NCBI GenBank assembly: GCA_903813345.2 | Contig: CAIIXF020000001.1 | Location: 11,346,001 to 11,410,000, forward strand | DNA from: Owenia fusiformis | Taxonomy: Eukaryota | Direction: 5' to 3' | DNA: 64,000 nt | In this document: positions 7,815-50,745 of the stretch, one piece after another | How positions within the stretch are numbered: position 1 is the first letter of the stretch | How the letters are laid out: every line of letters starts with the position of its first letter | Translations under genes and position numbers: made by a program | The notes under the pieces: generated by a model | Database searches by the model: none | The model's input: the letters and a program-made list of their open reading frames with translations, nothing else | Told to the model about the DNA's origin: nothing

Positions 7815-7997
7815 CATGTAAATATGACGGAAAGACATATAAACACGATAGCGTGTGGCAACCGTATGGAAATCAAGACCCATGTTTTGTTTGCAAGTGC
7901 CATAATGGAGAATTCTTTTGTGAAACGCAAAAATGTGACAAACCTAATTGCCCAGGAGCAGTAGCCAAGGAAGGGGAGTGCTGCCCGAAATGCCCAG
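7815..7997 (+). CDS. Collagen N-propeptide VWC (chordin-like cysteine-rich) exon
   Basis: Translates [60 protein letters not shown], the VWC Cys pattern (CxxCxC...CCPxC); tttcag acceptor, gtaaag donor, phase 1-1. Confidence 0.93.
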
Positions 7998-10900
7998 GTA
8001 AAGACATCACCCAAACATCTATTGTATTGTATTGTATCTTTATATCATTTAGCGTATATATATAAATTATATAATAAATATAAATTGTAATATTTAAAGA
8101 TTATACGACAATAATATACTGATTTCTCTCTCTCTCTCTTTCAGATAGTGAAGAACTTGAAAAGGTACAGAATAGCTTGCAATTAAGTATACTTTCATAG
8201 TTTAAACATAAAAAACTATCGAACTTCACTATTGTGTTTTCATGATATATTTCTATTTATTGTGAGACAGAAATACACCACTTTGTATCTAAGCACAGGT
8301 GCAAAAGGGAAAGGACCAAAAGCTGTAATGGAACCTAGCAAGAAAAAGCAAACTCTATTCGTGCATACCAGTCATAAGAAAAGAACCAAGAACCAATCCA
8401 AGACCAGAACACCAACGGACATTTCATTCATACTGACGTCATTACAATAATATATGTAGAAGCAAAAATAGAATTTTATAATTACTTTCAAGGGTCAAAA
8501 CCCATTTGCAAAGCTGTCAAAGTAATCCATAAAACACAGTAATTCACAATGACCATTATGAAAAAACTATGGCTGGTTTCGATCCCAAATTTTTCAACCA
8601 TTAAAGTCATTTTATACTTGAACGTTACTTATAGTATACCATCATTCGGAAATATAATATATTTTAATATTTCAAGATGAGGGCTGCTGCAGAAGAGAGA
8701 CTTGTGACAGTACAAGTAAGTATACGCACATTGAAAACATTGTATCATGTAAATATAACTAAATGAATGCAAACATTTGCTTAAAACATTTAAGACTAAT
8801 GAATGTGCAACGCGTTTTCAGTAAATGATAATTATCATTCAAAATACGTTACAGAATGTTCATATTGTGTACACAATTTATATACATTGGGGATTTGCTT
8901 TTAGGGACCTCCAGGACGCATCGGAAGAGCTGGACCTCGTGGAGGTCAAGGAGATAGAGTAAGTAGCTATGTCTTTAAATCATTCAGAATAACACATACA
9001 TTAAAAAAGTACATGAGCTGTCTAAAAATTAAAAAACGCGCACCTTATCTATTCATCAGATATAACTGATGGTTGCTTGACCAAATTTTCGTTGGCACAG
9101 TTGTACCCTCCACAATACTCTAGACGATTCAGCGGCAATACATAATATACATGTATATATGAGCTTAATATATATGATTATAAATTATAGGGTGACGAAG
9201 GTAGCGATGGTAACAATGGCGTCCCAGGGCCACCTGGTCCACCAGGTCCTCCAGGAGAGGTAAGCCGACTTTATTGAGCTTTTTTATTTGTTAAATGAAA
9301 TATTATAACTTGTTCAATTTGACCAGTCATTGATATTTAATTCAACATCATTTTTGTAAAGTTCTTAATGATATGTGATGTGAAATAAATGTGTATGTGT
9401 AGAGATTTCTTTTAAAAGTATTCTTAAATAATTTATTGAAAATAGCCCCTTGCTGAAATCCTCTATAACTTTAAAAACTCCAAGCTTTAAAAACAGGAAT
9501 TAGAAGAGCAAAATGGATACTATTACAAGTGATAAAAACTAAGGTTCTTAAACAGGACATGTGTCTTGATTTTCTGAGGATTTAGGTTAATACTACAGAA
9601 TAGATCACAGTATGATTTCAAGATAAAAAAAAGTCAAATAGAGCTGAATTAGTTTATGTTTGTTTTTTAACATTCCATGTGCAGTAATTGTCAAAAAGTC
9701 TACTGATAGATTTCTATTTTAAGTGAAATGTACTTGAAGTATTGTATGTAATTATATACCAGTGTCAAAATTTTACAACAATTAGTTTTGCATCCAAAAT
9801 ATATGAAAATTATAATTTAAAACAATAAAAAAGTGTTTCATGTGCATTTTAATTATTTTCTGTAGATTTGAATTAGTATTTTAGTGTAAATAGAATGTCG
9901 TATAGAATATTTACTTGTATATTCTATACAGGCACTGTAGTGTATTCTGTTTTCTTAGTTTTATTTATTCAGAAAAGTTAATATCTCCTTGATTCAATAT
10001 TCTGTTACTTTTATTTTTGGTAATGTGTTTTTTTTATTTCTGAGTGGATTCTCCTCAATATTATGTCTATATTTTGTTTGCTTTACATCCTTGGTTGCTT
10101 TGGTTACGTTATAGGCTGCAGCATCTACTTGGGACCAAGTTAGGTCAAACTGGCAGAACTCTGATAAAGCAGGCGGGGCTCAGTTCCCTCCTTCTATAGT
10201 TGCACAACAGGTACCATTGTCTGTGTGTCAACAAATAATCCCCTAACCCTCCTAAACCCCTAACATCATGTAACACAGTCTAAAACATCGAAATTTCAGT
10301 CTCTCTCTAAGGAGCTGGAATTTGGTTGGATGGTGAAATATGTGGTATTGCATCAGAACTCAAGAGACGAAAACCAGGACAGTACAAGGATCCACTTAAA
10401 TATTCATATTAAATGCAAACCATAACTGTTTCACCATTATGGAACTGAAAGCACTTATTTACTACTTATATTCTACAGTATTTTAATGGCATTGGTTACA
10501 GGCACAGGCAGCATATTGGGATACATTGAGAGAAAGCTGGCAACAAACTGAGAAGGGACCTGGCCCAAACGCGGCCTACCGTGGTCCAGCAGTGATGCAG
10601 CAGGTTGGGAAGTCATATCTTATTAACCTTAATGTTCTCAAGGATATGGATACGTTTCTAAACATGTCTAACATAACACACACTGTTGAAATATTATCTA
10701 ACTCTCTAATGAATAAAACAATTGTTATGTTGATAAAAAACAGGAAAATTAACTTTTACAAAAAGATTACACGTTCATTTTTATCACTTACATATTTACT
10801 AATGAATCTTAATATAAACTAGAGAACCATCTAAAATAAACTAATGATATTATTGTATTTTCAATGCAACTCTATGTTTAATGTAACTAATGCATTTGTA

Positions 10901-13900
10901 GTATTTACCTTTAAACATGCAATAGTCATACTTAAAACAAAACAAAAACATTTTTAGATAATATAAAATATTTAATTGAAATGAATTTCAGCACAAGTTA
11001 GTTCACTATATACAGAAAAATCATTTCTTATATCTAGGTTTGCTTCCATCCCCTCAATTTTTGTATCTTTTATTATAGGGTCCAATCGGTCCAAGAGGTT
11101 CACCAGGACAACCGGGTCCAGCAGTAAGTATTTTAATCAGGGTGATATATTCTGTAAAACATAACGAATCACGACATGAAGAATAAATATTTAGACTAAA
11201 GAATATGATAAAGCTTTTTAAGAGCTGAGTTTCAGGATACATGTTTATAGTAGCGTTGTAGCGTAGTTAATACAAAGTAGTTCTGCTGCCTGGAATAGCT
11301 TTACACTATTAAGGCGTTCTTTAGAATGTCAGACGCAACCTTATAGTTGGAAACGATTAATATTTTACAGACAGATTGTAAAAATAAACGTTCATGAGAA
11401 CAATGTTTTATTAACGGTTTAACCTAAGGAACAGGCACATCTCATCTTTGCATGTACAGTCTATTGAATTGTACCTACTCGAGCGCAATAAACAAGATGA
11501 ATTAACAACAGATTCTAGAAATTAAGATAAATGGGACAAAAAAAGAAGTTAGTTTCTTCATAACCAAGAAGCTGGCTAGCTAGCTATACCACATGTAACG
11601 GAAACTAACGGAAATGCTTGCGGTCTTATGTTACCCATGTCAGCATAATAAACAATTTGTATTCAGACTTTTTTGATGTTCTAATTTCGGACTTATGAAC
11701 TAGATCTAGCTACTCTGGTAAAAAATAAAAATTATTTTTGGTGGATTGAGCGTTGTCTGCGTCAAACATGCTGTTAAGTGAAAACACGTGGGGCACTACT
11801 ATCGACTACCCGAATATCCTAAAATAAATTAGTAAGGCTGGAAATGTTGTTTTTTGTATTGTTGGTAACCGCAGACTCACCACAAGGACATTTTTCTTAT
11901 TTATTGTCTCTTGTTTTAAGAAAAAAATTAAAATCAATGTTCTTGACATAAGGGTTTTCCAGAACAGTCTTGTTTCTGCTGGTCGCCGGACAGTTGGCAA
12001 AAACAGGATATAGATTTGACCCACCCGGGTCACCGCTAAAATAATATATTATTGCAAAGAAAATGAAATTATAATGAACCGATTTAGCCTTCTTAAATGT
12101 TTGAATGTTAATATGTTGACGTTTTGTTATAGGGTCCCCAAGGTTTCCAGGGTATTCGAGGAGAGGCAGGAGAGCCAGGACCACCGGTACGGATGCCTTT
12201 GATAACATGAAATATTTCTATAAAAAGAATTATAATACGAATTATCTACGAAAAGTAATATAATTTTAATATATACTTGATATTCTATTATATAATATAT
12301 ACATAAAGCGACATCCATAAATTAGAATAACATTGGTGAGAAATATTTATACAAAATAAACTAATTCTAATCTTTGTATATTTCAGGGTCCATCAGGTTT
12401 GAGAGGACCCCCAGGTCTTTCTGGTCTGCAAGGAAAAGATGTAAGCATTAGTCCTGAAAAGTTTAAAAGTCAACGTGCCCTAGTCATTACTTAGCTTTTA
12501 TAGCACAAGTATGCTAAAAAGTATAAACGCGTATTTATAGAAATAGTTTCACACCACTATTTTACCTGATCACATGTCTGAAAAGTCGCAAGATTCAACT
12601 GCAAACAGTTTATTCTCTTTTCAATCCGTTCTAACTGTATATCCTGGAGAGGCCACCCGCATTCATAAGTTCATAACCTAAACCGTTACTCCATGGATAA
12701 ATCTCAAATTTATTCAATTTTTGTGTGGTTCATGAATAATTCGAGGGGTTGCTAACAGTTCTATAAATCCTGATTAGATGGATTTACTTATGCAAGTTCA
12801 AGTGTGAATCCATTTGGTGTGGATTGGCTAAATCCAAAATGATCTGGGATTTAACTTTCGGCTGTCGGCTATCGGATTAACCTACTATTTTATGACCAAC
12901 TGACTTAAATATGAATAGTACCTGCCACTATTCCTTGCATATTTAAATGAGTTTTCCACAAAAAGTAAGTTAATCCGGTAGCCGACAGCCGAAAGTTGCA
13001 TTCGCGTATACAAGATAACATTTATTTGGATAATCCCCGGCACAAGGACTATAGTTAAATTCTTCAATGTTCCAGGGTGAAGTTGGACGTGATGGTGATC
13101 CCGGCTCAAGAGGTCTCCCAGGGTCTCCTGTAAGTTTTACTTATATATCTTGTATTAGAAGGGAAATTGCAGTATTCGTAAATGTTATACTTTTAAACAA
13201 GTAAAATTGCTAACATGTCATAATGGCTTAGCTATGAATTTTGGTCAATAAATCAAAAATGCTTATCTGTCTTTCCACTCAAGTTCCAAATTGAATTACG
13301 ATTATGTCTGGTTTTTGTACAACCTCCTTGCTCTCTTTCAACATGTCAGCTTTAGTTAGACCAATTACAAATTCCGATTTTGCTTTTCTGTGCTCCTTTA
13401 TTGTAGAGTGTGTAGTTTGCAGAACTATGAACGTAATAAACCATTTGTTTTAGGGTCCAAGAGGTCCATCCGGAATGCCAGGTATGCCAGGACCAAAGGG
13501 ACACAGGGTAAGTATAATATACCTTGAACAAGCGAATAATGTTCGAATATGATGTGTAACCTGGATAAACGGAGATTTAAGGCATGAGCAAAAAGATCAA
13601 TTCTAATTGGTCCATATTAATAAATGAACGTATAAGCATTCATTTGCCCGATTTGCTGCTTTACCACTATTTTATGTTTTTGGAATTTCATTTTAGGGTT
13701 ACCGAGGTCAACCAGGATCTAAGGGAGAACAAGGGCGTGGTGGTGAGAAGGGTCCCGAGGGATCCCCTGGTCCACAAGGTCCTCATGGACCAGTTGTAAG
13801 TACATGTACAGTTTCAATGTTTACTAGGATATAGCATCATGAAGGCTTTAAAACCAACATCAAAATGAAAATAACACAAATGTTCAATGATTGTTTCTCA

Positions 13901-16900
13901 AAAAGTTGACAAGCTAAAGCATATATATATGATATTTTATATAGTTATTACTTTATGCAGAAGAAATGCAATCCAATTCAGTAATTATTCTATCTTAAAT
14001 AATATCAATTTATAGGGAATCAATTGCATTGTGTTGTTGACTTAATCTTAATGCTTGTATCATCTCATGTTTAGGGTCCAAGAGGTCCAGCTGGTGAGCG
14101 AGGTAGAGATGGTAAACCCGGTCCTGCAGTAAGTATCCCTTCTATACAACAGCATGCAAGTGGACCAACATAGTTGTAATAGTAATAGAATAGAAAAAAT
14201 GGTTTGTACTTTCCTAAAAAAATATAATTTAGAAGTCGTCCATTCGTGCAAAATAAAGTAAAATATCACGCTTACTTGTTCAATATTTTAGGGTCTTAGA
14301 GGTGTTGATGGTCTAGGAGGTCCATCTGGTCCACCAGGTCCAATCGGTCAACCAGGTCCACCAGGATTCCCAGGCGCACCAGGAGCCAAAGTAAGGATTT
14401 GAGTGTGAAAAAATATATATCATTACACTATAAATTAGTCCTGATTATGATAGTATAGTTTTAATGCTGTAATTTACAACACTACTCCAATGTGCCTCCA
14501 AAAGCAGGCTAGCAATAACAAGACATGTGCGGCAAATCTAATCATCATAATTATTATATTATAGGGAGACAGAGGAGCACTAGGTTTGAAGGGTAATCAT
14601 GGTTTACAAGGTCCACGTGGTGAAAATGGAGCTCCAGGAGACGCTGGTCAACCAGGACACCAAGGTCCCCCCGGTAGAGATGGAGTTAATGGAGACAAGG
14701 GAGACAGAGTAAGTTTTCATAGTATTTATATTAAATGTTTATTTTTATATTTATTTACATGTCAGGTGTGAACCTTGGTGGATGGACAAGATGCGAGTAG
14801 AAATAATTTTGATTTAGCCTACATCATTAAATAAATAAAATTCAGTCAAAGTGATATCATTTTTGAAATACACTTTATAGAAAATATTCTGAACATTTGG
14901 CCTCACTAAAATGTGATACTTCATTGCTCCATATCACGCGAATTCAGTTTTCCGTTTTTTTCATTTTAGGGATCACCCGGTGGCCCAGGAAATCCAGGTT
15001 TCCCAGGACCCCGTGGCCAGAACGGACAAGATGGACAACCAGGCATTCAGGGAATCAAGGGAGACTCTGTAAGTTGATATTCCAAAGTTACTTTGAGACG
15101 ATTTCATAACTATTGCCCTTATTGTCAAAATGTTTGATATTTAATGTTGTTATCTGTAGGGCCAACCTGGACAACAAGGTTACCAAGGAGAAGCTGGACC
15201 AAAAGGTTCACCTGGTACTTCTGGAGATAGAGGTGCCCCTGGTCTTACCGGACCACCAGGCAAACGTGGATCAAGAGGTGCCACCGGAGCACCAGGACCT
15301 GCTGGCCTTCAAGGAGAGAGAGGTCCCCCAGGTGGTAGAGGTGCTGCTGGAGCTGATGGTCCTTCTGGTCCACCAGGTCCATCCGGTGAACGAGGAGAGA
15401 GAGGACCCAATGGAGAAGTTGGACCAACTGTAACTATATTATTATTAGTTTTCTATAATAAAAATATAATAATTCTAAAAAACGTTCGGTTGTATAATAG
15501 AAGTATTTTACATAATACGATCAATTGTTTCTATTTCAGGGCTCACCTGGTCCCCGTGGTTTGAACGGTCCACCAGGTCCAAGAGTAAGTATAATCTTAT
15601 AAACATATTATAAAGTAATCATAATCATAAATAACTTTTTTAATATTCCTGTAAGCTGTGATTCATTTGGATATAACGTTTTTGTAATTTCCTTTTTAAA
15701 GTATTTAGAATCTTAGACATAACATGTCATGTGTATTACTATGTATGTTTCTTTTAAAGGTCTATGGGTTCTTGTTGCTATTGTTTCTTTAAGTTTTGTA
15801 TTCTTGCAACTATTGTAGGGTATTGATGGCCGAGCAGGATCAGATGGTAAACCAGGACCCCCTGGTCCACAGGTAGACAAATGGCAACGATATAACACTG
15901 TTTGCTTCCCAACATTGCAACATGTGTTGAGACAAGTTTCAGACATGACGTGTAACACGTCAAAGTGAAAAGGAAACGGTTGATCGTGTTACACATGTGT
16001 TGACAGATTAAGAAACTTTTCTCCATACAGTTGCTGTTGTTTCATGAGTTCATTCATATAATGGTAATCACATACTAACTTATAGGGAACTAATGGATCA
16101 CCTGGTAAAGATGGCTTACCCGGTCCAGCTGGATTCCCAGTAAGTATGAGCTATACTGATCCTTCTAATTAGAGACGATATCATTTCTAATCAAACGACG
16201 CTCTCAAATGTTAACATAACATGAGCAATTCATTATCATCATTATTGCATAAAATTGTATTAATATCATTTCACATCAGAATAGTACTATAGCTTTAAAA
16301 GTCAAAAAAAGCTTAAGATTATATTTCCGACTCAATTTGGTATTTGGGCACGAATATATATTTACCTATACAATAACATAGGGTTTTGAAACCTATAGTA
16401 CATTAAATTATTATCAAACGCTACGTATTACATTGCATCCAATATTATATGTATTTCGCCTTCTTCACAGGTATATTTATCATTACCTAATTGAGAATAT
16501 ACGCGTACTAAAACGTTGAATGCCTATTTTCATTTATTAATTATAAACTTTTTGTTTTATCTTTTTTCATATTAATGTTATTTATTATTTCATATTTTTT
16601 AAATTATATTTTATGATAAAGTTATATTTTGTTCGTTAGACGTAAATATTTTTATCTTTATGAATTATTACAATTTTTATTTTACCTATATTCTATTCTT
16701 TCTGTTGAAATAATTTAATAATAGATATATATAAGTACTTTCATTTTTGGTATTTCAGTGACAAAACATATAATTTTGTTAATGATATTGTTATAGATGT
16801 ACTAATTTTATCATAGCTGTCGTTAAACGTCTCATTTTCTACATTTAACCCAGTGCTATTTACAATAATAATTGCTTTGGTATGTTTCAATGAATCAAAT

Positions 16901-19900
16901 ATTTTAGGGTGAAGCTGGTCAAGACGGCAAACCAGGTGAACAAGGACCACAAGGTATCCAAGGTCTTCCAGGTATGCAGGGAACGCCCGGCCAGAGAGGA
17001 TTCCCAGTGAGTTCATATAATTAGTATCAAAATATATCATATAAAGCAATAGCGATGATTCGATTACTGACTAGCATTATAATTTACAGGTTTGATAATA
17101 TTCTATATTTTATTTAAGTAAGATCTATGTTATAAGTGATATCACTTAATTCAAGATGAATAAAAACAGAAGGAGCTCACGTGTCTCGAACTGAAGACCT
17201 CGTGGTTATGACACAGCGCCTAGTTTGGCTTGTTTCTTATTGATGTGATGTATTCTAGGGAGAGGCTGGAAAAGATGGAAAACCTGGAGAGACTGGACCA
17301 TCAGGACCACAAGGGGACCGAGGCAAACCAGGCAACGATGGTAAACCAGGACCACAAGGAGCTCCCGTAAGTTACACTAAGTAACTATATAAATGTGATA
17401 ATATTTAGGATTTTTGTTCCTCAGATTTCATAATCAATAATATGTTTAATATCGTGAATTCCAATTCAATTCTGATTCATGAATGCTTTTCACATGATAT
17501 AAGCTTTGATTTCATTATTTGATTAATTTCACTTTAATGCTTTCTTTAGCAATATGATTATACTACAATACAATCACCAGGCCATGTAAATGATATCCAT
17601 GATGTCTATTTTGTATAGGGAGAGGCCGGTGATAGAGGTCAGCCAGGTAATCCAGGACCACCAGGATTCCAGGTATGTTCATATAAACAAATATAAAAAT
17701 GTATATACAGTAAGGGTATTTGACACAACAGCAATTATAGTTTCATGTCATTTGGGCATATAGGTCCGTGTTTCTGGTATAATTTGATTATCTAAAAATA
17801 TTTTTATGTTACATTGTATATTTCTCATATCTATGAATCATGCTACTTAATATGATGATATGTTTATTTCAGCATCATTGAGCGGCACAATGTCGAATGA
17901 TCAACAACGCTTTGTGCCCCTTCTCTGCGAAACTTCGTTTATTTTTAGTACAATACAGTACAACAGTTGACTTTGTTTTCAGCGATTTTGTAATATCTAT
18001 ACATTTGACATTAATTAAAGTTACATAATAAGAATAAATTCAAAAAATAACTTTAAAGTATACATACATTTTATTTAAATGATACAAGTTTTGTTATATG
18101 GTATTTCGGGCGGCTATTGTAGGGACTCCCCGGAGAGAACGGCAAAGCAGGAGAGCCAGGCAAGCCAGGAGAAGTCGGACCTCCTGGACCACAAGGGTCT
18201 AGGGGTGATGTTGGTCCACCGGTGAGTCAGGATGTGATCACAACACATCAAGGAAAGGACTAACCAAATAACTGCGCAACATTACATAACCACTGGACAT
18301 AACTCCATACCTAACACTCAGCTTTAATTGTTTTCAGTACTAAGGATGGCAACCATGGAGTAACATTAACTATAATGTCATCAACTAATCATCGCATAAT
18401 AATGTATCACAATTCAGGGTTTACCTGGTGAAGCAGGCACAGCTGGTGAACCCGGCAAAAATGGAGAAATTGGACCTCCTGGCCCAGCCGGGTCTCGTGG
18501 TGGCGTTGGCTTGCCGGTATGTGAGTGCCTGCTGCAAACGCACTTGGGCTCGGACTGTATGTCTGTTTTGTATGTTCAGTGTCGTTGCATCATACATTGT
18601 ATTGTCGTCTCTGTGTGCTTGAAACATCAGCCCTTGCATGTTAGGCAACAGTATGATTATTAGTGACGGAAGGTCGTCGACTTCTGCAAATGATGTCTCA
18701 ACAGGTGCATTAAAGAGCATGTAAGCATAAAGAAAATGTTCACTATGTGCATATTTAGGGTCTTCCTGGAGAAGTAGGACAACCAGGAACTCCTGGAAAG
18801 GATGGTGATGCTGGGGCAGCTGGTCCCCAAGGTGCACGTGGTGCGATTGGATTACCCGTGAGTGACCGCGATTTCCACACGTAGATTTGAAAGCTAGTCC
18901 ATTCAATACCCTTTGTATTTTAGACTCCGTAGTACTTTTAAGTTTCATTATTATCCTTTCGATCCTAGCTTACGAGATTACCTTTTCCTTGCTTCTAACC
19001 CTTGTAGGCACCAACATTATTACATCTTATACATCAACGAAATCAGAATTGACATCAGAGGAAAATTAGAAAAACATTCCTCTTCATTGCTTATATGTTT
19101 CTACTGTTTTATTGGTACTATACCTAGTACAAGTGTACAACACTCACAAATGAACTTTGGAGGAACAGCTAAATAAACAAACGGATTTTGGAAAAAACAA
19201 TTGGGCGAGTTGTACTCGTATTTTTACTAATTATGATTTTCTGTCTGGCATTTGAACTTTTTGTCTTTCGTTGTCTGGGATCAAAAGGTTCCAGTGCCTT
19301 TGCGGGTTGAGTTAACCTTCAGAGAGCTTTCCACCATTTCAATATCTCTTCTCAGCATCTCTTGGTGGTGGTTTACATCTTGAGATATCCTGAAACTGCG
19401 GTCCTATTCCACATACTATTTATGTTTCAATTGTTTACCTTTGTATATTTTCCTTTTATATTTTGCTGTCATTCAATTGCATGTTTATTTGCATTCAGTA
19501 TTTCTTTTTTGAATTTGTTAGTTCGTTCGTAATTGTCATGCATTCTTATTAATATTATTGCATGTATGTCAAGTCCTTTGTTTCACATTAACATGTTCAA
19601 CATCTAAACAAAATGCCAGTATTTGATATTCTTAACTGAATTAACCATAATTTTCTTAATTCAATATATGGAAGCTATTTAGTAAGATGCTTACTAAAAA
19701 TACTGATTTATAAAAAGATGAATATAGCTGCATGAGTGAGGGATATTATTTCTAATTGTTGTTTATTATGTTTTCAAAATGGAAAACGAGCAGAGGTAAG
19801 TGCACCCATATGGTACATTGATACAACTTTTATCAAATTTGATTCTGGAATTACTCTACGGTAACCTTTTTATAGTCCAAGTTGTACCTAAATAGATGGT

Positions 19901-22900
19901 GTTTATAAGCTGATCCCCTTTAATGTAATGTAAACAATCACGTCGAAATATATTATCACAAATAAATGTAATAGAGCAAATTAAACTAAAGATGTAGAAC
20001 AAAGTGTAACATATAACTTTGTGAAAGTACAAAGACTTCCTGTGGTAACAAAAGAACACGTTAACTTATAGGGAGAGCGAGGTCAACCAGGAGAACGTGG
20101 CGAGGCTGGAAAAACTGGAGCACCAGGAGATCGTGGACCAGGTGGACCCTCAGGAAAAGATGGTGAACGAGTGAGTTAATTAAAAAGTAGTTCATCGTCA
20201 AAAAATGAATCAAATGACATTATTAGATACTATATACATGTATGAATTTGAAGAAAAGTAGTCTACTTGGGATTTACTAAACAATTTAAGTTACATAAGT
20301 TAAAGCTAATATGTGGCCCCATCCCGCTTGGTTCTGTTATTGTTTTCTTGGTTGACTCTGATCGTTTCTTCATAAACATTTATGCTAAACATGTTTGTTA
20401 TCTAATACAGGGACTGCCTGGAGAACGAGGAGAGCCAGGACCCCAGGGAACTGCAGGTTTAGTGGTGAGATAATATTCTTTTAGCTTAGCATTCAAATAA
20501 TATCAATGATTTAAAACTAAAAGTACCCTAAACTACAAGTTGGAATACTCATATAATCAAAGTACATGATTTATCATAAACTTACTGAAAATTAAAAATC
20601 AAATCTCACTGGAGTATCAGACATTGAAAAGAACAAAAAAACTGATTGACATCAACTAGTGACAGAGTGTAGTGTAGTTAAGTGACGATACGTGTTTCTG
20701 AAATTCCAGGGTCTGCCAGGTCAACGAGGAGAGCCAGGAACATCAGGACCAAAGGGAGAACGAGTAAGTTAGGCTTGTCTGGATTTAAGTACTAGTATTT
20801 ACAGTAGAGTAATATGCTTTAAAATGTCAATTGGTAGGTTAAAGTCCTTCACAGTATGTAGTACGTTTGAAAAAAACAATTACAATTTACAATTACAGTA
20901 ATAACCTTCATATTTGTAATTACTTTTACAATAGAAATTCACTGTCACAGGTATGTATGCGGTGTTCGCAGGGGTTGGGTGCGTTGGTTGCGAACACACC
21001 CCCTTCTTGACCAAATGCCCAAAAATTTCGTTATTCAATACTCAGAGGAAATAACCATGTGCTCCAGAGAAAATGGTGGAGAAGCTAGGCTTCAAGTGCA
21101 AGCTATAATGTTTTTTAGACACACCCCTTGAAAAAATCCCAGGGACGCCCCTGGTATACATGTAAACTTGTACTTAAGTAAAATTGTTTATCTAGATGGC
21201 ATTATTAATTGTGTTCTTTAATTGATTTACTTTTCCTAAATGTTATATAGATGATTTCTTTGTTTTAGGGTAACAGTGGAAATTCTGGACCACCAGGACA
21301 ACAGGGTAAACAGGGTCTCCCCGTAAGTATGCAGTATTCAATAGACTCATTGAATATTAATGTTGATTATAATCAACCTCGTACATACATAGTAAGAAAT
21401 CAGAAAGGTATAATTTTTTCATCAATTATTCCTACATTATATTTGCGTTGCAAACTGTTAATAGGGTGAAGCTGGAACCCCTGGTCCAAGTGGGCCCCAA
21501 GGGTTAGCTGCTCCAAAAGGTGAAAATGGACAACCAGGTCCAGCTGGGCCTAGAGGAGCGACGGGTAAATCAGGAAACAGAGGGGCTCCAGGAACACCAG
21601 GACCAGTTGGTCTCCCAGGAACTCCAGGACTTGCCGGTAACCCCGGTCCTAAAGGTGACACTGGCGCTGCAGGTCCCCGAGTAAGTTCTAATTTTTTTCA
21701 TAAGCATTGAAAATATTAACATTGAATTTTATATTATAGGGTGAACAAGGTCCTAAAGGTGCAGTAGGTCTCCCAGGTAAAGATGCACCAAAAGGTGAGG
21801 ATGGCGCTGCAGGGCCACCAGGTCCAAGAGGTGCCCCAGGTAAAACTGGCAACAGAGGGGCTCAAGGGTCACCAGGATCTCAAGGACTGCCCGGTACCCC
21901 TGGACTTCCAGGCCAGGCTGGGGCAAAGGGAGACGGGGGAGCAGCAGGTCCACGTGTGAGTAAGGCGTGATCAACTGAGCCTGATGACCACTCACATGTA
22001 ACAAATGATGTTATAATTCAACTCACCTATAACTTTTTTCTCTTATAGGTCTAACTATAACACATGGTATGATACTAGCATACAAATGTACCAAGGATGT
22101 GCAAAAGGATGTGTCCATGCAGAAAAATAATATACATTATGATAACATAGAATATAACTTGTAATGAAAGCTAAGCCTACTATTCTAATCTCGAGATATG
22201 CATATAATAGATGTTTATTTTAATAAACCTAATTGAAACATTATGAAAATGGTTTGACTCAACCAGTTTGCTTGTTGTTTGGATGATATTATCATTTAAA
22301 ATGGGTTTGTTTTGTTTGATTTAAACCTGCATGTTTATTATTTACTCAGTTTTTAGGGTGTCCACTATCTTTAGCCTAATACTATCATGTAACCCTGTAT
22401 GTATCTTGATTTGTTTGAGTTATCTATCTTTTTATTAATTCTGATTGTGTTATATTACTTATAAATCATTTAGGTTGTAACTTTATTTTACCCGAATATT
22501 ATCTGTTATTCCTTTTGAAACAATTGCTTTCAAATGGTATTAGTTTTGCCCCAAAATTATTTAAGTTGATATCAATAGAATCTCTTTTTTATTTTGCCTT
22601 TCAAGTATTCTCGACCCTTGTGATTTTCATTTCGATTAACCTGAGTATATTATATTTATGTTTTGTTTTGCATTCTGTCCTCTATCCTTTAGATATTCTG
22701 TCGCTTAATTTGACCCTCTTTTCAATGTCCAAAATCAATAGTATAGCCTCTAACTACTCCATAATGCAATGTGTTTGATATTTGATGAATAGGGTCCCAA
22801 TGGTGCTATTGGTGTCCCAGGTCCCCAAGGAGAAGCAGGTCGAGCTGTAAGTATAACTTTTACACATACTGTACATCTAAATTTTACAATCTGACATATT

Positions 22901-25900
22901 TTTGTTTATAGTATATTTTAAAATTCTTTGTTAATATAATTGTGTATAGGCTCTGTAACTTGTTATATCAACTGATTCAATGATTCTCCTAAGAAAATAA
23001 ATGCTTCTGACATGAATGATTCTTAAAATAGGGAAAAGACGGTATCCCAGGTAGACAAGGAAAGAGAGGAGATCCAGGTGTTCCCGGAGACGCAGGACCA
23101 CCAGGTGCCCCAGGACGACCAGGTCAATCAGGATCTACTGGCCAACCTGGAAGCCCAGGTACCCCAGGAGCAGCAGGCAAAGAAGGAATCAAGGTATCAA
23201 TTTTATTGAATACTGGATCTGGGCGCTAAGACTGTTATCTTAATCAGAAATATGTTGCTCTCTTATTTATTTATTTTTAGTTCATTTGTTCATTCTTCAT
23301 ACATAACATCTTGTTCTCTTATTTAGAGTTGCAGGAAGACTTGATTGGTTCATTACATAGTGTACCAATATATTCGATAGGAATACTATAAGTATTCTAT
23401 ACTAGAGTATTAGGTTTACTCAATTCAATGTTTACAATTTAATGACATGTTACTTATTCATCTCTTCTATTACTTAGGGAAGCCGTGGTGAGTCTGGACG
23501 ACCAGGTAAGGATGGTATCAACGGAAACACAGGACCTCAGGGACCCCCAGGAGAGAAGGGCGGTAATGGTGAAGATGGCAAGGATGTGAGTGTTGCTCAG
23601 TTGCTGGAACATGAGAACTTAATACAATATGTCCCATTGTTTAGTTATATAATAGATCTTATTGCTAAATTAATGAAATTATCCAATGCAAATAAGCAAT
23701 TTATTCTATTCAAAATTGCAGTATATCATAAGAGTATATTCTAGGTATTCTTTTAGTTTTGCATAGTGCTGATATTAAACGAAACTTATAATGAGTAACC
23801 AATTTATAATAAGATGCATACCTTGCCATTTGTGCTATGATAGGGTTTACCAGGTCCCCAAGGTCCACCAGGCCCACAGGGAGAGCGTGGTCTCGTAGGC
23901 TTACCCGGTCTGAGAGGAGAGCGTGGTCCAACTGGTGCTGGAGGACCAAGAGTAAGTTGGATAGTTTGCCTAATATTAGCACTTACTAATACTTCTACAT
24001 GTGTGTTATATTTAGGGTGCACCCGGTGTTCAGGGACCTCCCGGTCAAGCGGGTAACCGTGGATCACCAGGAATGCCAGGTATGGCTGGGGAGAGAGGTC
24101 CTACGGGTCCCGCCGGAGGACGTGTGAGTTACATTCACCAGACTAAGCATGTGCCTTGCCACACGCTTACGATCACCTTGACGTGGTCGAACTTGCATTT
24201 CATGTCCAAAGAAGTTGCTGCTCCAGTAGACTCCGATAGGAATACTTTTTTTGTAGCTTTCCCTACCAATTTCGCCTTATCCGATGAAGGTTTTTGTTGC
24301 ATTCCTTCAGACATATCAGTTATCTCAAGCATATACGTTTGTTGGTTTGGCAGAAAGGAGAAGGTGACACCCGGAGTTTCAAGTAAACGTTTATTGTGAA
24401 AATAAATATATTAAAGTTAAGTTTTCTCAAAAGATGCAGACTCAACAACCATTCGTTCAAATCATATTCTGATTCATAGACGCTGCATGTCTTCTTCCTC
24501 CTTGGCCCCTTTGAACGCCAATCTCCATAGATCACATTCCCAAACCCATATGCGTGCATGTTTAGGTACTTCCTCGCAAAGCTACATATACTATATGAAT
24601 TCCCATGAGGCGTCTCTTTGTATCTTTGAAATGCTGTTGAAACATAGATGATGGTGCGCAACAATGAATTTAGGAAACAAGTTGGGCATGTGTTTGAAAG
24701 AAGAAGGGAGGCGGTTTATGATCGATGAAGTTGTGTAGGGTCTGTATCTTTAAAAAGACGAAACTTCGGGTGAGACGGGCTGCCCATGTAGTAGTTTAGA
24801 TTGCTATGGTATTACAAACACAGTCTGCATGTGTTTAAGGTGTGCCCTATGGCCAGCTGAGTAATTATTTTAGTTGTACATATATGAGCTATTATACCTC
24901 ATGAATGTTTGCCAAATGGACGTGATATTTCTGTTGGTGTGTGTATGAGACTAGCTTCTATAGTTTTATATTCAGTTTTACCTTGTATTGTATAAATGTG
25001 TGTTGCATTTTGGAATGCGATGTCAATCCAACTGCTGGAATCAAAGCACCAACTATTCAATTGTCTTCTCAAGATGTACTTGGTTTATTATATCGTCTCA
25101 GACTCCCGAGAGCCAAATCAATTACTATATATTAACAAACTTTTATTTTGCATCATGGAATAAGGTGTAATTCATTAAAGATGCAGCCCCTATCATTAAA
25201 CTCTTTACGCATTCATCACATTTCTACTTCATTTGCACATTAAATGCACTGGAGCATATCCACTACTGTTTCGCAACGTATTCATCGCATGAACATTGAA
25301 TATGACGTTTTTAATCAATACGTAGAATATGATATATTTTAAAGCATAGGTGAAGGTGTTTGGTCAAAAGTTTTCTTTAGAAATGAATTATACTGGGTCT
25401 GCATCTTTAGAGGATAAGATATGGATAATGTAGAATTTCTTTTTACTTAAATAACACTGATTTTTTAATGTATTAATTTAGAGATATATGTGTATTAAAA
25501 TTATGTAAGTGATGATCATAAACCATACAATTGTAAATATGTGTATGATAATGACTCGCGTATGCAAATTAGTTAAACCGTATGCTCAGCCAATCAGGAT
25601 CAAGATAAACATCTAAGCTTGTATTCGCGAATGCAAATAGCGGCTGTTGGCCACCGGATTAATCTACTATTTTATGACCAATTTATTTAAATATGAATAG
25701 GACTTGCCACTATTCCATTCATATTTAAATGAGTTTGTCATAAAATATTAGGTTAATCTGGTAGCCGACAGCCGAAAGTTGCATTCGCAAATGCAAGCTA
25801 AATGTTCTAACTGTTTTCGACAAATGGGCTACTTAACATATTTTTGATTTTTTAGTCAAACAATTTGTGAATGGTTCTAATTTTGATTTTGATTTTATAA

Positions 25901-28900
25901 CAGATTTCCTGAGAAAAAGTAACAAAATATTTTTGAAACTGGATTAAAATTACCTTTGTCATTTTAGGGTGAATCAGGATCAGCCGGAAAAGATGGACGG
26001 CCAGGTGACAATGGACGACCAGGACCACAAGGCAACCCTGGACCACCAGGTCTCACTGGAGAACAAGGACACGAAGTAAGTTTATTTAGAAGTAAGACAG
26101 ATATACTGTAGTTGTATTGTAGCTGTACTGTAGTTAGTACTATAGAATGCCATTTCATGTTTTCTTTTTAATAGCAATACACACAGACTCAGTTATATCA
26201 CGTTTTATATTTGCTTAGGGTACACCCGGTAAAGATGGTGCCCCTGGTCTTCAAGGACGCCCAGGAGACAAAGGACCACCCGGCTCTGCAGGCAACCCAG
26301 GACCACAAGGTCTCCCAGGACCTCAGGGACCCCCAGGCGCAACCGGATCTGCTGGTTCTCCAGGAGCCCGTGGTGAGAACGGAGAACGTGGTCCAGCTGG
26401 TGTCCGAGGACCTCCAGGTGCTAGAGGCTCAGCAGGATCTCCTGGTGTACAGGGAGAGAAGGGTCAGCGTGGAGATAGAGGAAACAAGGGAGATAAGGGT
26501 TGGCAGGGTCTTCCAGGTCTCCAGGGTGTGACTGGTAACCCAGGTCCCCAGGGAGAGGATGGTCAACCAGGTCCACCTGGTCCAGCTGGTTCAAGAGTAT
26601 GTAAAACTCTCCAAATTCATTTGATAATATAAACTTGTGATGATAATACAATCTGAAATAATATTAAATTCTTCCGTTTTTTTGTACATTTATATATATA
26701 AATCATTAATGCGTTGTAGGGTCAACAAGGTAATCGTGGTCAACCAGGTCAAGCAGGATCTCCCGGACAACCAGGTTCCATTGGACCCCCTGGTCCCCGT
26801 GGTCCCGAGGGTAGCGACGGGCGCAATGGGCCACCAGGACCTCCAGGTCCACCAGGTCCCCCAGGTCCTCCAGGTGGTGATGCTGGATGGGGTGGAAACA
26901 TTTGGTCAAGACCAGGACCAAAAGGACCCGACCCACTTTTGGTATGTCTTCACTTGTATGTTTCTCCTCTCCACCATGCTGAAATTGATAAACTTAATAA
27001 AAACCATACAAGTTTGAATATATAAGCGCAAATGCCAAAGGGAACGGACCAAAAACTGTAAAGAAAGCTAGTAAAACTGGGGCGTTATTTGATGATTTAT
27101 TTATAGGGTGACGAAGCACCAAAGGATGTCTTTGAAGCCATGAATCGTCTTGAAAAGGCCATTGAAACAATTAGGAAACCCGATGGTACACAAAAAGCTC
27201 CAGCAAGAACCTGCAAAGATCTCGCCAACTCCAATCCCGAATTTGAAGATGGTAAGTATTACTAACCAATTATGTCCAAATGTAGTGCCTATCATCATGT
27301 TCATTGATGATATTCCAATGCATGTAATTGTCCTCTAAGTTGGATTTGATATGTTTTCATCATATATATTCTGTTGATTGTAGGTATGTACTGGATTGAT
27401 CCTAACCAGGGCAGCATTGCTGATGCCATCCAAGTGTGGTGTAATATTGGCGATTATGAGACTTGCATTCTGCCAAAACCAGAAGAGGTAAAAACTTTGC
27501 TACATTAAAATGAATATTTCATCATTTATTTTAATACTTTTGTCTTGTAATATATTCGCGATTCATTTTACTCCTAGCAACACTAGTAGATGGGTTAACT
27601 ACATTTGGACTTCATTGTATGATGCAAATGTCCCATTTGGCATGGAAGTTCCTTTGTGCAATAGAAATAAATTTATCCAAAGACACAAGCTAGATGGCGC
27701 TTTATATTGGAAATATACACATTTTTTAAAATGGCCGCCAAAAATTCATCAGAGACAATATATTTGATTCTGTGCATGCTACAAGTATAAGATTGGTGTC
27801 AAAAAATACAGCAATGTAGTCGTAGAATCTATTTTATTAGATCTTGAGTCTTGAAAATTAAGAACTTCCACTTTATATTCAAAATATATGCATTTTTCAA
27901 AATGGCTGCCAGAAATATAACAAAAAAGATATCTTCGCTTCTAAGCATGCTACAATGATAAGAGTGGTGTCTAAGTATACATTAATATTGGGTTGTAGAA
28001 TCCATTTAAATAGGTCTTTCTTAATAAGACTTTTCACTTTATAGGAAATTATGTATTTTTAAAAATGGCCACCAGAAATATAACAATGATGATATCCTCA
28101 CATCAGTGCATGCTACACTGATCCGATTGGTGTCAAAATTTTATATTTATGGGGTAGGAGAATCAATTTTATTAAGTCTTGTCAATCATCGGATACTTCT
28201 TCTGCAAACTATATCAACTGCGGCGTCCCTAAGGGATCCATCCTAGGTCCACTTTTATTTTTGATTTACATAAATGACTTACCCGATGATCTTTTTGGAA
28301 AGGCATTTATCTACGCTGATGAAACATCACTATATTACCCCTTCGATCCATCCGATCCTGACATGCATACTATCAATCATGATCTTAATATCATAACTAA
28401 CTGGTCTAAAAAATAGAAAGACAGAGGAAGTTATCTTTCAAAGCCAGCGCTGTGTATTTGCTACTCCGCCACCTTTAGCCAAACTTGGAAATGGGGAAAT
28501 TAAAAGGAATAATCTTCATAAGCATCTAGGGTATACTTTTGATTATCTTCTTTCTAACAAAAATCATATATATGACATTGTCAAGAGAGTACAAAAACTG
28601 CTTAATCCATTGAAGGCACTTACATCAAAAATTAACTCGAAACATTTGGAGACAATGTACAACTCATTCATAAGGCCTCATTTTGATTACGCAGACATTC
28701 TTTATCATTCATCAACTCAAGTACTGATCAATATCCCTAGCAATTTACATTATCAGGCTGCATTATTGTGTTCTGGGTGTCTCCATGGCTCTGATACAGG
28801 TAAAGTTATGGGGGTCTTAAACTGGTGCACACTATCCCAAAGGAGGGAACAACACATTCTTAACTTCATGTACAAAGTAATCAGAAACCAGGTACCTTCC

Positions 28901-31900
28901 TATGTATCTTCAATATTTGAAGAATTCAAAAATCCAGCTACCAGAAGAACAAGCAATACAGAGGTATACCAAATTCCTATAAGGTCAACTGCCCAATTTA
29001 TTAAATCCCCTATTCCTAATGCAATATCACTGTGAAACAAATTACCTTAACCTCTTTTAGAGTATGCCTTAAAATTTTCCCTACGATCATTCAAAAAAGA
29101 AAGTAATAAACACTATCTGCCCAAGAGAATAATGAGTTCAACGTCCCTGATTAATTTAACAGGGTCTCAAGAAATCACTCTCAACTGAGCTCGTGTTGAC
29201 TTATTTTTGAAAGCAAGACTTTTTGCACACCAATTTACATTTATAGACTCGGCTCATTGTTCTTGCGGCAAACCTGAAACACTAAAACATCTATTTTTCA
29301 AGTGTCCTCTATGCCAAATTAATAGGCATGCCCTGATGGAAGAGGTCAACAAAATCATTTTTATAATAAGATCAGCCAACTAACAAACATGGATGATAAA
29401 CTTAATTTTCATTTATATGGTGACGAGACATTATCCTTAGCAGAACTAAGTAGACTTCTTATCATCGTCAGCAATTTTCTCCATGACAACAAGACATAGC
29501 AAAGAGGTCTCATCTAAGCCCTGGAGAACTCATAATATATATCTTGTTTTTTACACATCTACTTGGCACAAACCGCTCTGGTCCCTGGGATACCCTTCAT
29601 GCACAGTCGTCCTCAAACAACTAAATACTATTCTTAATTTTTTACATGTAAGTGATGGCCAACCTATAATGCCAATATGGCGATTGGTGGCCGAAAATGT
29701 ATTGACTTTACTTCAATAAAGTTTATACTATAAAAAAATTATAGTTTTCACTTTATATTGGAAATATATGCAGCTGAAAATATAACAAAGATTGTATATT
29801 TGCTAACAAAGATTGTACCTTTGCTAACAAAGATTGTATCTTTGCTAATAAAGATTGTATCTTTGCTTACAAAAATTGTATATTTGCTAAAAGTTTCTTT
29901 ACTTCTGGGCATAATATTTCATAAAATTGGCTTCAAAATCTACATTTTTTTGGGAATGTAAAATCTATTTAATTACTCAGATGCAAGTAGGTAGTTACCA
30001 TTTTCCCCACCAGGTGGATAATTTGGGTGAAATAACGTTGCAGGGTATTACAAAGTTCCCTTAAACTTGAATATTCTTAATTTTTAGTGGTTCGCATTTC
30101 ATATTACTCTTTTGTATCTGATAGTTGTACAAATTAAAATATCTCCAGTTAAAGAAAATATTATCTGCACAACAAAAGATATTTCACTTTTTGTGTTTTA
30201 TAACATGGACTATGGGGAATCTCCCTGACCTAAATTTCACATTTTCGAAGAAAATTCTATTTTAAAGTTGATGGACTCATTTCAAAACCACATTTCTTGA
30301 TGTATTTTTTCATGACGATTCCAAATTCAACATCAGTTAAGTTAGACTGAATTTTGAATTTTAATGACAAAAATTGTTACTACTCGCATCTAGCAAATTG
30401 GATTATGAGTCTTAAAAATAATAGTTTTCGCCTTAACACAGCAAATGTGTATTTATCTTTCACATGTTCTTTTTACTCAAATTCACCAGAAAGACCAGTG
30501 TCTCTTTAAAAACTTGCAATAAACATGTATCTGCAATGATAGTGCAACTTTAGTTGTTGCAATGCAACATACATAAGAAAGAAATGTGATAGATACATGT
30601 AGAAACCACGCAGGACAGACATACATATGTACCTACATAGTTAGAAAGGGCCAGAAACCTTCTGGCGAGAGAAAATCTTGAAGATCGGAATAGATTTCAA
30701 GGGCTGCATATTATGACAGTATTGCAGAACCCTCTTCATCTCCTCTGACCAAATCATGGACGATGTCTCTGTTTACCGAGTCTTCCACTAATCCAACCAA
30801 CAAACTTTTAAGCTTGTTGTTGATTGGCAACCATTTTGAAAAATACATGTATGTATACACATACAGCACTGAATATTGTCATATTGGGAAAAATATTCTT
30901 ATTTTCTCATTTGAACAATTAAGAGATTGAGATTTTAAGATTTTAAACGGTAATATGCCTCACCATGAGTACTTCCTGGCCATAGTTTCCGTCATCGCAA
31001 ATTGATATTCAAAATTACACTTTCAAACTATTCTACTTTTGAAGAAGTTTAAGAGCCCTTGTTAGATATACTTTTTTGTAATATTTTCCACACCATTGAA
31101 AAAAAGGCGTTATTTTCAATAAAAAGTGAAAATGTTTGTTAACTAATAGACATACAGTACAATATCAGAATTTCCGCTGATTTAAACATTTTGGTGACCA
31201 TTTAGTCAATGAATGCTAAAAATTATATTTAGACAATAAAAAAAATTGAGATCTAACTTAATATAATGTAGCCATACCTTGACGACATATCTAGTAAGTA
31301 ATAGCTAATCAACTCCTTCTCTGGGACATTTCGAATTTTCTGAGGCATTAATCATAAAATTAACACAATCTTCAATTTAATTGAGTACATATGGCCGGCC
31401 ATACTTTGAAGGAATCTGACAATAATTGCAAAATCATACATTCTGTAAGACAGACGAAGAACTGACAGACTGGCGGACGGAGGGCTTCACTATATTCCCA
31501 CTGAACTTTCTTCGTTGGGAAAATAAAGACTATAAACCTTATTAAATGAGTTCTACCACCCATTAATGTATACTTGGACATCAATCTTACTATTGTAGCA
31601 TGCATACACGTGAAGATATCATCTTTGTTACATCTCTGGCAGTCATTTTGAAAAAGGCATAATTTTTTGATATAAAGAGGAAGTTCCTAATTTTCAAGAC
31701 TCAAACCCATACTAAATTTATTCTTCACCCACAAATGTATATTTAGGCACCAATCGTATCATTATAGTATGCATAGAAGAAAATATATTGTCTCCGTTGT
31801 ATTTTTGGTGGCCATGTTGAAAAATTTGAATATTTCCAATATAAAGCACCATCTGGCGTGTGTCTTTGGATAAATTTGATTCTATGGTCCTAAGGTACTC

Positions 31901-40978: not shown

Positions 40979-50745
<9,767 letters not shown>

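What the first reader, a model, noticed from the sequence alone, without database searches (positions are those of the whole stretch)
18123..18857. Triplicated 99-nt helix exon
Seen: three consecutive 99-nt exons all begin GLPGE, have GK at triplet 5 and G[SA]R at triplet 9, but differ widely at synonymous and X/Y sites. Only one fits between the GFQ exon and the GERGQPGER exon. Retention of every Gly and of the reading frame despite that divergence suggests an old duplication with all three under purifying selection (inference).
Basis: partly seen in the sequence, partly recalled or inferred. Interest (0 to 1): 0.7.

Follow-up and report, generated by a model that had tools for sequence, protein, structure and literature searches.

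The report
Alternative triple-helix exons in fibrillar collagen
Three look-alike 99-base exons lie side by side in an invertebrate fibril-forming collagen gene, and only one of them at a time appears to enter the mRNA, so a single gene can make several equal-length versions of the collagen rod.

Summary
Exons A 18123-18221, B 18418-18516 and C 18759-18857 are 99 nt, phase 0 and AG/GT-bounded. They share 9-15 of 22 X/Y residues, against 0-5 for all 25 other pairs of 99-nt exons.

They sit in a clade-A-type fibrillar procollagen gene (VWC, minor helix, major helix, COLFI). Third-codon positions are near saturation, dN/dS is 0.11-0.16, and the flanking introns no longer align.

Serial inclusion was not seen. 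In the RNA-derived run X7, a 3020-nt spliced contig carries exon C but not A or B.

With one exon from each of four tandem clusters the helix is 338 triplets (1014 aa), the canonical length; serial use gives 402. A related full-length mRNA (L001) is collinear with the one-per-cluster product.

The 108-nt pair shows a splice-graph bubble typical of mutually exclusive use. An unrelated genomic contig (L002) has similar clusters at other helix positions.

Use of A and B in mRNA was not observed. Seven literature searches found no description of this in a fibrillar collagen helix; the nearest precedent is C. elegans let-2.

The parts
7793..33057 (+). Fibrillar procollagen gene as far as traced: VWC exon, minor helix, N-telopeptide, major helix, C-propeptide and stop
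   Evidence: Pfam VWC at 7793-8002; COLFI at 27107-27262, 32521-32742 and 32905-33054. Gly-X-Y exon table. Spliced joints in the X7 contigs.
17619..17672 (+). Constant 54-nt exon upstream of the cluster (ends GPPGFQ)
   Evidence: The bin depth of the X7 contig fits its inclusion.
18123..18221 (+). Alternative 99-nt exon A ([33 protein letters not shown])
   Evidence: Absent from the dominant X7 mRNA contig; seen only in a low-depth unspliced contig 18145-18416.
18222..18417 (+). Intron A-B, 196 nt
   Evidence: An unspliced X7 contig at depth 3.22 spans it.
18418..18516 (+). Alternative 99-nt exon B ([33 protein letters not shown])
   Evidence: Absent from the dominant X7 contig. A separate X7 contig ends inside it at 18487 (table 7).
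18517..18758 (+). Intron B-C, 242 nt
18759..18857 (+). Alternative 99-nt exon C ([33 protein letters not shown]), the form used in the X7 mRNA
   Evidence: A variant at 18800 is carried by a contig of depth 49.1, the depth of the 3020-nt spliced contig. Bin depths fit C only.
20072..20170 (+). Constant 99-nt exon downstream of the cluster (starts GERGQPGER)
15819..16139 (+). Two 54-nt exons (15819-15872 and 16086-16139), of which only one is in the X7 mRNA
   Evidence: Bin 15664-16287 has depth 4.25, which equals one 54-nt exon at 49.1. Contig length arithmetic agrees. Their mutual likeness is only background, 3 of 12 X/Y.
21465..21955 (+). Pair of 216-nt look-alike exons (21465-21680 and 21740-21955) separated by a 59-nt intron; only the first is in the X7 mRNA
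   Evidence: 48/72 aa identical, dN/dS 0.21. Depth fits 216a only. The intron is the shortest of 33.
23844..24123 (+). Pair of 108-nt look-alike exons (23844-23951 and 24016-24123) separated by a 64-nt intron; the splice graph indicates either/or use
   Evidence: Joints 23585->24016 and 24123->25968 lie in one contig with sides of 27 and 30 nt. Both exons start GGT and then differ. Residual bin depth implies the other exon at about 36-38 (inference).

Best explanation
The three 99-nt exons are a cluster of mutually exclusive alternative exons. They lie in the major triple helix of a clade-A-type fibrillar procollagen gene. Each mature mRNA takes one of A, B or C between the constant exons 17619-17672 and 20072-20170. 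Residues 463-495 of a 1014-residue helix are therefore swapped without changing helix length or Gly register.

The same gene has three further clusters: 54-nt x2, 216-nt x2 and 108-nt x2. Up to 2x3x2x2 = 24 equal-length alpha chains are possible.

Shown here: the exons are paralogous, old and constrained; the dominant mRNA in one sample has C only, 216a only and one 54-nt exon; both 108-nt exons are used as alternative branches.

Inferred: A and B are used in other tissues, stages or conditions.

Mechanism of exclusion (inferred). For the 216- and 108-nt pairs, the intervening introns (59 and 64 nt, the two shortest of 33) may be too short to splice, as in let-2. For the 99-nt triple the introns are 196 and 242 nt, so exclusion must rest on something else, such as regulated splice-site choice or RNA structure. 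That was not identified. All exons are phase 0 and multiples of 9 nt, so nonsense-mediated decay cannot police double inclusion.
For: - Exon anatomy and paralogy.
- Constraint: dN/dS 0.11-0.16 with near-saturated synonymous sites, and unalignable flanking introns.
- RNA, run X7. A 3020-nt contig at depth 49.1 has GT..AG joints. It carries variants at 18800 (exon C) and 21557 (216a).
- Its flat depth reproduces 13 bin depths best under 'one 54 + C + 216a'. The sum of |obs-pred| is 4.9, against 15.0 for A or B instead of C, 19.0 for A+B+C, 9.2 for both 54s and 21.8 for both 216s.
- The contig has 1263 nt after position 15429. That equals 1260 nt of one-exon-per-cluster sequence through 23585 plus the 3 nt (GGT) shared by both 108-nt exons.
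- Helix length is 338 triplets with one exon per cluster and 402 if serial. The canonical value is about 338 triplets, 1014-1020 residues (PMC2852846, passages read).
- L001 is a full-length related mRNA (VWC + collagen + COLFI) with a single 33-residue unit at this position. It aligns with all 24 one-per-cluster products with only a 1-aa and a 3-aa gap; the serial product needs 196 aa of gaps.
- L002, another organism's gene, has 3x108, 2x108 and 2x72 look-alike tandem exons. Its 3x108 cluster corresponds to a stretch that is present once in the window's fused 378-nt exon.
Against: - No mRNA containing A or B was seen. In X7 they appear only at intron-like depth (about 3-7), including an unspliced contig 18145-18416.
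- The joint rows 17672->18759 and 18857->20072 were not printed: 23 joints were cut from the table. C-only inclusion therefore rests on the variant row, bin depths and contig length.
- Logan contigs drop rare variants, so minor isoforms cannot be excluded, including ones with two exons.
- Three raw RNA runs (X13-X15) had almost no reads on the gene.
- No mechanism enforcing exclusivity in the 99-nt cluster was found.
- A and B have somewhat higher GC3 (0.36 and 0.30) than C (0.15) and the constant exons (0.23). This is compatible with rarer use or relaxed constraint but is not significant (p = 0.056 and 0.21).
Confidence: 0.72

Rival explanations
1. C is effectively a constitutive exon. A and B are dead or nearly dead duplicate exons that the spliceosome skips; they persist but contribute no protein.
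For: Only C is in the dominant X7 mRNA. A and B were never seen spliced. Their 3' splice sites have low pyrimidine content (0.53 and 0.47, against a mean of 0.63 for constant exons). Their GC3 is closer to intron composition.
Against: dN/dS is 0.11-0.16. All 11 Gly codons, the open frame and AG/GT are kept in both exons, although the flanking introns have diverged beyond alignment. The neutral expectation for that retention is 2e-4 or lower. The splice-site and GC3 differences are not significant (p = 0.056).
Confidence: 0.13
2. A and B are optional cassette exons. They can be added in series to C, giving helices 33 or 66 residues longer in some tissues.
For: All three exons are phase 0 and 11 triplets long, so any combination stays in frame and in Gly register. 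The introns between them (196 and 242 nt) are long enough to be spliced. Contigs cannot show that rare forms are absent.
Against: The helix is 338 triplets only with one exon. A related mRNA has a single unit. The dominant X7 mRNA has one. Chains of unequal length would be out of register in a trimer and in the staggered fibril (established knowledge of fibrillar collagens, as in PMC2852846).
Confidence: 0.1
3. Assembly artefact: alleles or paralogous gene copies wrongly laid in tandem.
For: None specific. The three exons are the same length.
Against: The copies are only 60-68% identical in nucleotides, far beyond allelic divergence. An independent run's contig (X7, 18145-18416) runs continuously from exon A through the whole A-B intron. 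Six other runs hold 53-84% of the sampled words of 17200-27000.
Confidence: 0.02

Closest known systems
C. elegans let-2 (alpha2 type IV collagen) exons 9/10
   Same: A collagen gene with tandem, homologous, in-frame exons of near-equal length (108 and 111 nt). Exactly one enters each mRNA and the choice is developmentally regulated (PMC2119826, abstract). The intervening intron is only 30 nt and is thought unspliceable by steric interference (PMC4165533, passages read). That parallels the 59- and 64-nt introns of the 216- and 108-nt pairs here.
   Different: let-2 is a network-forming type IV collagen and its exons differ mainly in a Gly-X-Y interruption. Here the gene is a fibril-forming collagen, the exons encode uninterrupted helix, there are three variants with 196- and 242-nt introns between them, and there are four clusters in one gene.
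Multi-cluster mutually exclusive splicing as in arthropod Dscam
   Same: Several independent clusters of tandem duplicated exons in one gene give combinatorial isoforms of constant length. The Dscam cluster description comes from the abstract of PMC1397879 and the introduction of PMC4165533.
   Different: The scale is far smaller (2-3 variants per cluster) and the product is a structural rod, not a receptor. No docking/selector RNA pairing was found here.
Vertebrate clade-A fibrillar collagens (types I-III and the alpha2(V) chain)
   Same: VWC N-propeptide, minor helix, major helix of about 338 triplets, COLFI C-propeptide, and exons of 45/54/99/108/162 nt that begin with a Gly codon (PMC2852846 passages).
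   Different: As far as I recall (not from a call), vertebrate alternative splicing of these genes affects N-propeptide exons, not the major helix; helix diversity comes from separate genes. Here diversity is built into one gene's helix. This gene also has fused exons (144, 270, 378 nt) and one Gly->Ala substitution.

Membership tests
Fibrillar collagen, clade A type | C-propeptide of the COLFI family | tested here: met
   Pfam COLFI on three exons, E = 7.7e-13, 3e-22 and 3.9e-18, covering profile positions 3-49, 116-186 and 187-233.
Fibrillar collagen, clade A type | VWC module in the N-propeptide, followed by a minor helix | tested here: met
   Pfam VWC at 7793-8002, E = 3e-10. Minor-helix exons at 8905-8958 and 9191-9259.
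Fibrillar collagen, clade A type | Major helix of about 338 Gly-X-Y triplets | tested here: met
   337 triplets plus GGD with one exon per cluster; 402 if all are serial. One Gly->Ala at triplet 6 of both 216-nt exons.
Fibrillar collagen, clade A type | Helix exons of 54 nt or related sizes that start with a whole Gly codon | tested here: met
   All 34 helix exons are phase 0. Sizes are 45, 54, 99, 108, 144, 162, 216, 270 and 378 nt.
Mutually exclusive exon cluster | Adjacent exons of the same length and phase that are homologous to each other | tested here: met
   3 x 99 nt; 9-15 of 22 X/Y residues shared against 0-5 background.
Mutually exclusive exon cluster | Mature mRNA holds exactly one member | tested here: met
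   In the one informative sample (X7) the dominant contig holds C only. This is inferred from a variant row, bin depths and contig length, because the joint rows were cut from the table.
Mutually exclusive exon cluster | Every member is used in some mRNA | tested here: inconclusive
   No spliced A or B was seen. Three raw RNA runs barely cover the gene. Use is inferred from dN/dS 0.11-0.16.
Mutually exclusive exon cluster | Members are never spliced to each other | not testable with these tools
let-2-type steric exclusion | Intervening intron too short to be spliced | tested here: not met
   For the 99-nt cluster the introns are 196 and 242 nt. For the 216- and 108-nt pairs they are 59 and 64 nt, the two shortest of 33, but this organism's minimum intron size is unknown.
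Dscam-type docking/selector RNA pairing | One docking site complementary to a selector beside each variant | tested here: inconclusive
   Inverted-repeat scan and duplex folding gave nothing clearly above shuffles. The best case was the upstream intron against the B-C intron, -111 versus -88 +/- 7 kcal/mol, over a diffuse region. No orthologous introns were available to test conservation.

The most novel reading that the evidence does not exclude
A single clade-A fibrillar procollagen gene carries four clusters of alternative, equal-length exons inside its major triple helix. That allows up to 24 alpha chains, all of 1014 residues. It would be a small Dscam-like combinatorial system built into the rod of a fibril-forming collagen. 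Comparable clusters arose at different helix positions in another animal lineage (L002). Some invertebrates would then diversify fibril types and trimer composition by splicing rather than by gene duplication.
Probability: 0.45. Interest if true: 0.8.

Novelty: new variant of a known kind. Interest (0 to 1): 0.62.

Why it matters
The major helix of fibril-forming collagens is usually treated as an invariant 1014-residue rod, with variety coming from separate genes. As far as I recall, exon skipping there in vertebrates causes disease.

A gene that swaps helix segments in register would show that local helix properties can be tuned by splicing. Here the three variants differ in imino-acid content, charge pattern and candidate binding motifs.

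It would also give a natural system for asking what a defined 33-residue stretch of the helix does in a fibril. The short-intron pairs, found in two unrelated genes, offer a simple testable rule for how exclusion is enforced.

For genome annotation it matters too. Ab initio gene models that string all such exons together would predict helices about 190 residues too long.

Tried and rejected
- A search with the 216-nt exon was swamped by generic collagens. The best hit was 56% identical and no same-species product appeared.
- A search with a C-propeptide exon gave only two fragments at 66% identity.
- The representative library gave 439 hits at E <= 0.001, of which the best 150 were listed. Most were short gene fragments (the longest 602 aa) and none was a full-length collagen chain.
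- A search with L001's C-propeptide returned only vertebrate collagens at <= 47% identity. No close annotated relative or isoform set was found.
- The window's own genome is not held.
- RNA holders: no RNA holder was listed by the index. Raw RNA runs X13-X15 laid only 70-78 reads each. Most of those fell on three short intronic repeats, so they say nothing about this cluster.
- Genome-contig scans gave nothing, then four contaminant-like loci without helix exons.
- Docking/selector search was inconclusive.
- Pyrimidine content at the 3' splice sites is 0.56 for alternative exons and 0.63 for constant exons, p = 0.056, not significant.
- GC3 of A and B against constant exons is not significant.
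- A neutral-drift simulation timed out and was replaced by the analytic calculation.
- The earlier-findings index had nothing for this genome, these words or this sequence.
- Literature searches found no paper describing mutually exclusive exons in a fibrillar collagen helix. Two candidates were checked by reading matched passages and were irrelevant (10.64898/2026.10.23.761307; PMC11270918). The library lacks most subscription journals, so this is not proof of absence.

Full report
**What is there**

Reading 17400-19800 and scanning all frames for Gly-X-Y runs shows a + strand gene built of collagen exons, from about 8.9 kb to 26.9 kb.

Pfam finds a VWC module at 7793-8002. It finds the fibrillar C-propeptide (COLFI) on exons at 27107-27262, 32521-32742 and 32905-33054. 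Spliced contigs of run X7 add a minor helix (8905-8958, 9191-9259) and an N-telopeptide exon (10502-10603). The gene therefore has the architecture of a clade-A fibrillar procollagen as described in PMC2852846 (passages read).

All 34 helix exons are phase 0 and begin with a Gly codon.

**The observation**

Exons A (18123-18221), B (18418-18516) and C (18759-18857) are each 99 nt with AG and GT borders.

They share 15, 9 and 9 of 22 X/Y residues pairwise. All 25 other pairs among the gene's eight 99-nt exons share 0-5. So they are true paralogues, not generic collagen look-alikes.

**Age and constraint**

- Identity by codon position is 26/27/14 (A-B), 22/27/10 (A-C) and 22/27/11 (B-C) of 33.
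- At fourfold sites the same base is kept in 12 of 20, 3 of 16 and 4 of 16 codon pairs.
- The gene's strong A/T bias at fourfold third positions puts the chance level at roughly 0.38 (my own sum of squared base frequencies). C versus A/B is therefore saturated, and A-B looks somewhat younger.
- Nei-Gojobori dN/dS is 0.16, 0.11 and 0.16.
- The 100 nt on either side of the exons are not alignable beyond the splice consensus (z = -0.2 to 2.5, against 6.3-9.3 for the exons).
- If a copy had drifted neutrally by 0.35-0.73 substitutions per site, the chance of keeping all 22 Gly GG positions plus AG and GT is 2e-4 to 8e-8.

All three copies have therefore been under purifying selection for most of their history.

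**RNA evidence**

No run is on record as an RNA holder, and three raw RNA runs barely touch the gene. Run X7 (Logan contigs) clearly contains cDNA. One 3020-nt contig of depth 49.1 has a chain of GT..AG joints, and others cover the 3' end.

Twenty-three joint rows were cut from the output, so the joints around the cluster are not directly visible. Three indirect lines agree.

1. A variant at 18800 (exon C) and one at 21557 (first 216-nt exon) are carried by a contig of depth 49.1.
2. Contig depth is reported flat, so bin depths can be predicted. The model 'one 54-nt exon + C + first 216-nt exon' reproduces 13 bins with total error 4.9. The errors for other models are 15.0 for A or B instead of C, 19.0 for A+B+C, 9.2 for both 54-nt exons and 21.8 for both 216-nt exons.
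3. The contig has 1263 nt downstream of 15429. One exon per cluster through 23585 gives 1260 nt. The next 3 nt (GGT) are common to both 108-nt exons, after which they differ. That is where a graph contig should stop at a bubble.

Exon A appears only in an unspliced contig of depth 3.22 (18145-18416). Exon B appears in a low-depth contig that breaks at 18487. Use of A and B is not seen either.

**The 108-nt pair as a worked example**

One contig of depth 56.5 holds both 23585->24016 and 24123->25968, with only 27 and 30 nt on its outer sides. The next contig begins exactly at 25968. This is the shape of one branch of a k = 31 bubble whose other branch must also enter 25968 from a different exon.

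Residual depth in bins 23152-23775 and 23776-24399 implies the other exon (23844-23951) at about 36-38. This is my arithmetic and is an inference. Both members of that pair are therefore used, one or the other.

**Helix length**

Constant exons give 284 triplets. Adding one exon from each of four clusters (6 + 11 + 24 + 12) gives 337 Gly-X-Y plus a terminal GGD. That is 338 triplets or 1014 residues. Using all exons gives 402.

The review PMC2852846 states about 338 triplets and 1014-1020 residues for prototypal fibrillar chains.

**Relatives**

A metatranscriptome contig, L001, encodes a full-length related chain (1455-codon frame; VWC, collagen, COLFI).

- Its 1010-residue helix aligns end to end with all 24 one-per-cluster products (582-595 identities), with only a 1-residue and a 3-residue gap.
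- The serial product needs 196 residues of gaps.
- At the cluster position it has a single 33-residue unit: 21/33 identical to A, 21/33 to B and 19/33 to C.

A genomic contig from a different organism, L002 (GC 0.48), carries the 3' part of another fibrillar collagen gene with its own tandem look-alikes.

- There are three 108-nt exons (23-27 of 36 aa identical), a 108-nt pair and a 72-nt pair.
- The three 108-nt exons correspond to the first 108 nt of the window's fused 378-nt exon, where the window has one copy (my reading of the exon tables). So only one can fit there too.

**Mechanism**

The introns inside the 216- and 108-nt pairs are 59 and 64 nt. These are the two shortest of 33; the next shortest is 91 nt. 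In L002 the introns inside the two pairs are 61 and 68 nt, the two shortest of 17; the next is 80 nt.

This matches the let-2 precedent, where a 30-nt intron is held to be unspliceable (PMC4165533). The minimum intron size of these organisms is unknown, so this remains an inference.

The 99-nt cluster has introns of 196 and 242 nt and needs another mechanism. Repeat and duplex searches found nothing convincing. Because every exon is a multiple of 9 nt in phase 0, frame-based surveillance cannot remove double inclusions.

**What differs among the variants (read)**

| Variant | Pro residues | Notable sequence |
|---|---|---|
| A | 8 | contains RGD |
| B | 6 | ends GLP, giving GLPGER with the next exon |
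| C | 5 | ends GLP, giving GLPGER with the next exon |

Whether these differences matter is untested.

**Known or new**

Mutually exclusive exons in a collagen gene are known for let-2, a type IV collagen (PMC2119826 abstract). Seven full-text searches found no report of such exons in the major helix of a fibrillar collagen. The 2010 family review mentions alternative splicing only in a reference title about an N-propeptide. The searchable library is incomplete. I file it as a new variant of a known kind.

**Verdict**

The best reading, at 0.72, is a three-way mutually exclusive exon cluster, one of four in this gene. The main open point is direct evidence that A and B are spliced into mRNA.

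Noticed in passing
window 21465-21680 and 21740-21955: Both 216-nt exons carry the same Gly->Ala break (…A-P-K…) at triplet 6. The imperfection therefore predates their duplication. The related mRNA L001 has normal Gly there but a similar G-P-A/A-P-Q break 30 residues later.
   Followed up: partly
window 15819-15872 and 16086-16139: Only one of these two 54-nt helix exons is in the X7 mRNA (bin depth 4.25, equal to one exon). Their mutual similarity is only background (3 of 12 X/Y), so they may be an old alternative pair or one may be a skipped exon.
   Followed up: partly
L002 3444-4664: The three 108-nt look-alike exons of this other organism differ at 86-97% of synonymous sites. That is above the 75% saturation level, while 23-27 of 36 residues are kept. 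The sample is small and the cause is unexplained.
   Followed up: no
window 18189-18203 and the junctions of 18516 and 18857 with 20072: Exon A contains an RGD tripeptide (GSRGDV). B and C lack it, but both end in GLP, so the junction with the next exon reads GLPGER, which A does not give (GPPGER). From memory, RGD and G-x-O-G-E-R-type motifs are cell-adhesion sites in vertebrate collagens. Relevance here is untested.
   Followed up: no
window 28093-29035: A reverse-transcriptase fragment (Pfam RVT_1, E = 7e-7) lies on the + strand inside the long intron that splits the C-propeptide exons.
   Followed up: partly
window 12861-12935, 14782-14869, 25613-25645: Nearly all reads of the three raw RNA runs pile up on these short intronic spots. 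Their loose ends run into unrelated sequence, which looks like short dispersed repeats transcribed elsewhere.
   Followed up: no
L001, helix residue about 461-462: In the related mRNA the exon junction just before the 33-residue unit reads GPPGF-GIP. It is one residue short of the Gly-X-Y register. This is either a real imperfection or an assembly error.
   Followed up: no
window 58609-59463 (-), 45840-46244 (-), 35316-36227 (-): Other coding-like stretches downstream of the collagen gene: an open frame with an SPRY domain (E = 2e-20), a weak FAD_binding_4 match below its cut-off, and a 303-codon Asp/Glu/Asn-rich repetitive frame without a Pfam match.
   Followed up: partly
window 18429-18440 and 18525-18536: A 12-nt inverted repeat (11 of 12 complementary) pairs the start of exon B with the sequence just after its 5' splice site, looping out most of the exon. 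It could hide that splice site, but it is a single short match in one species.
   Followed up: no
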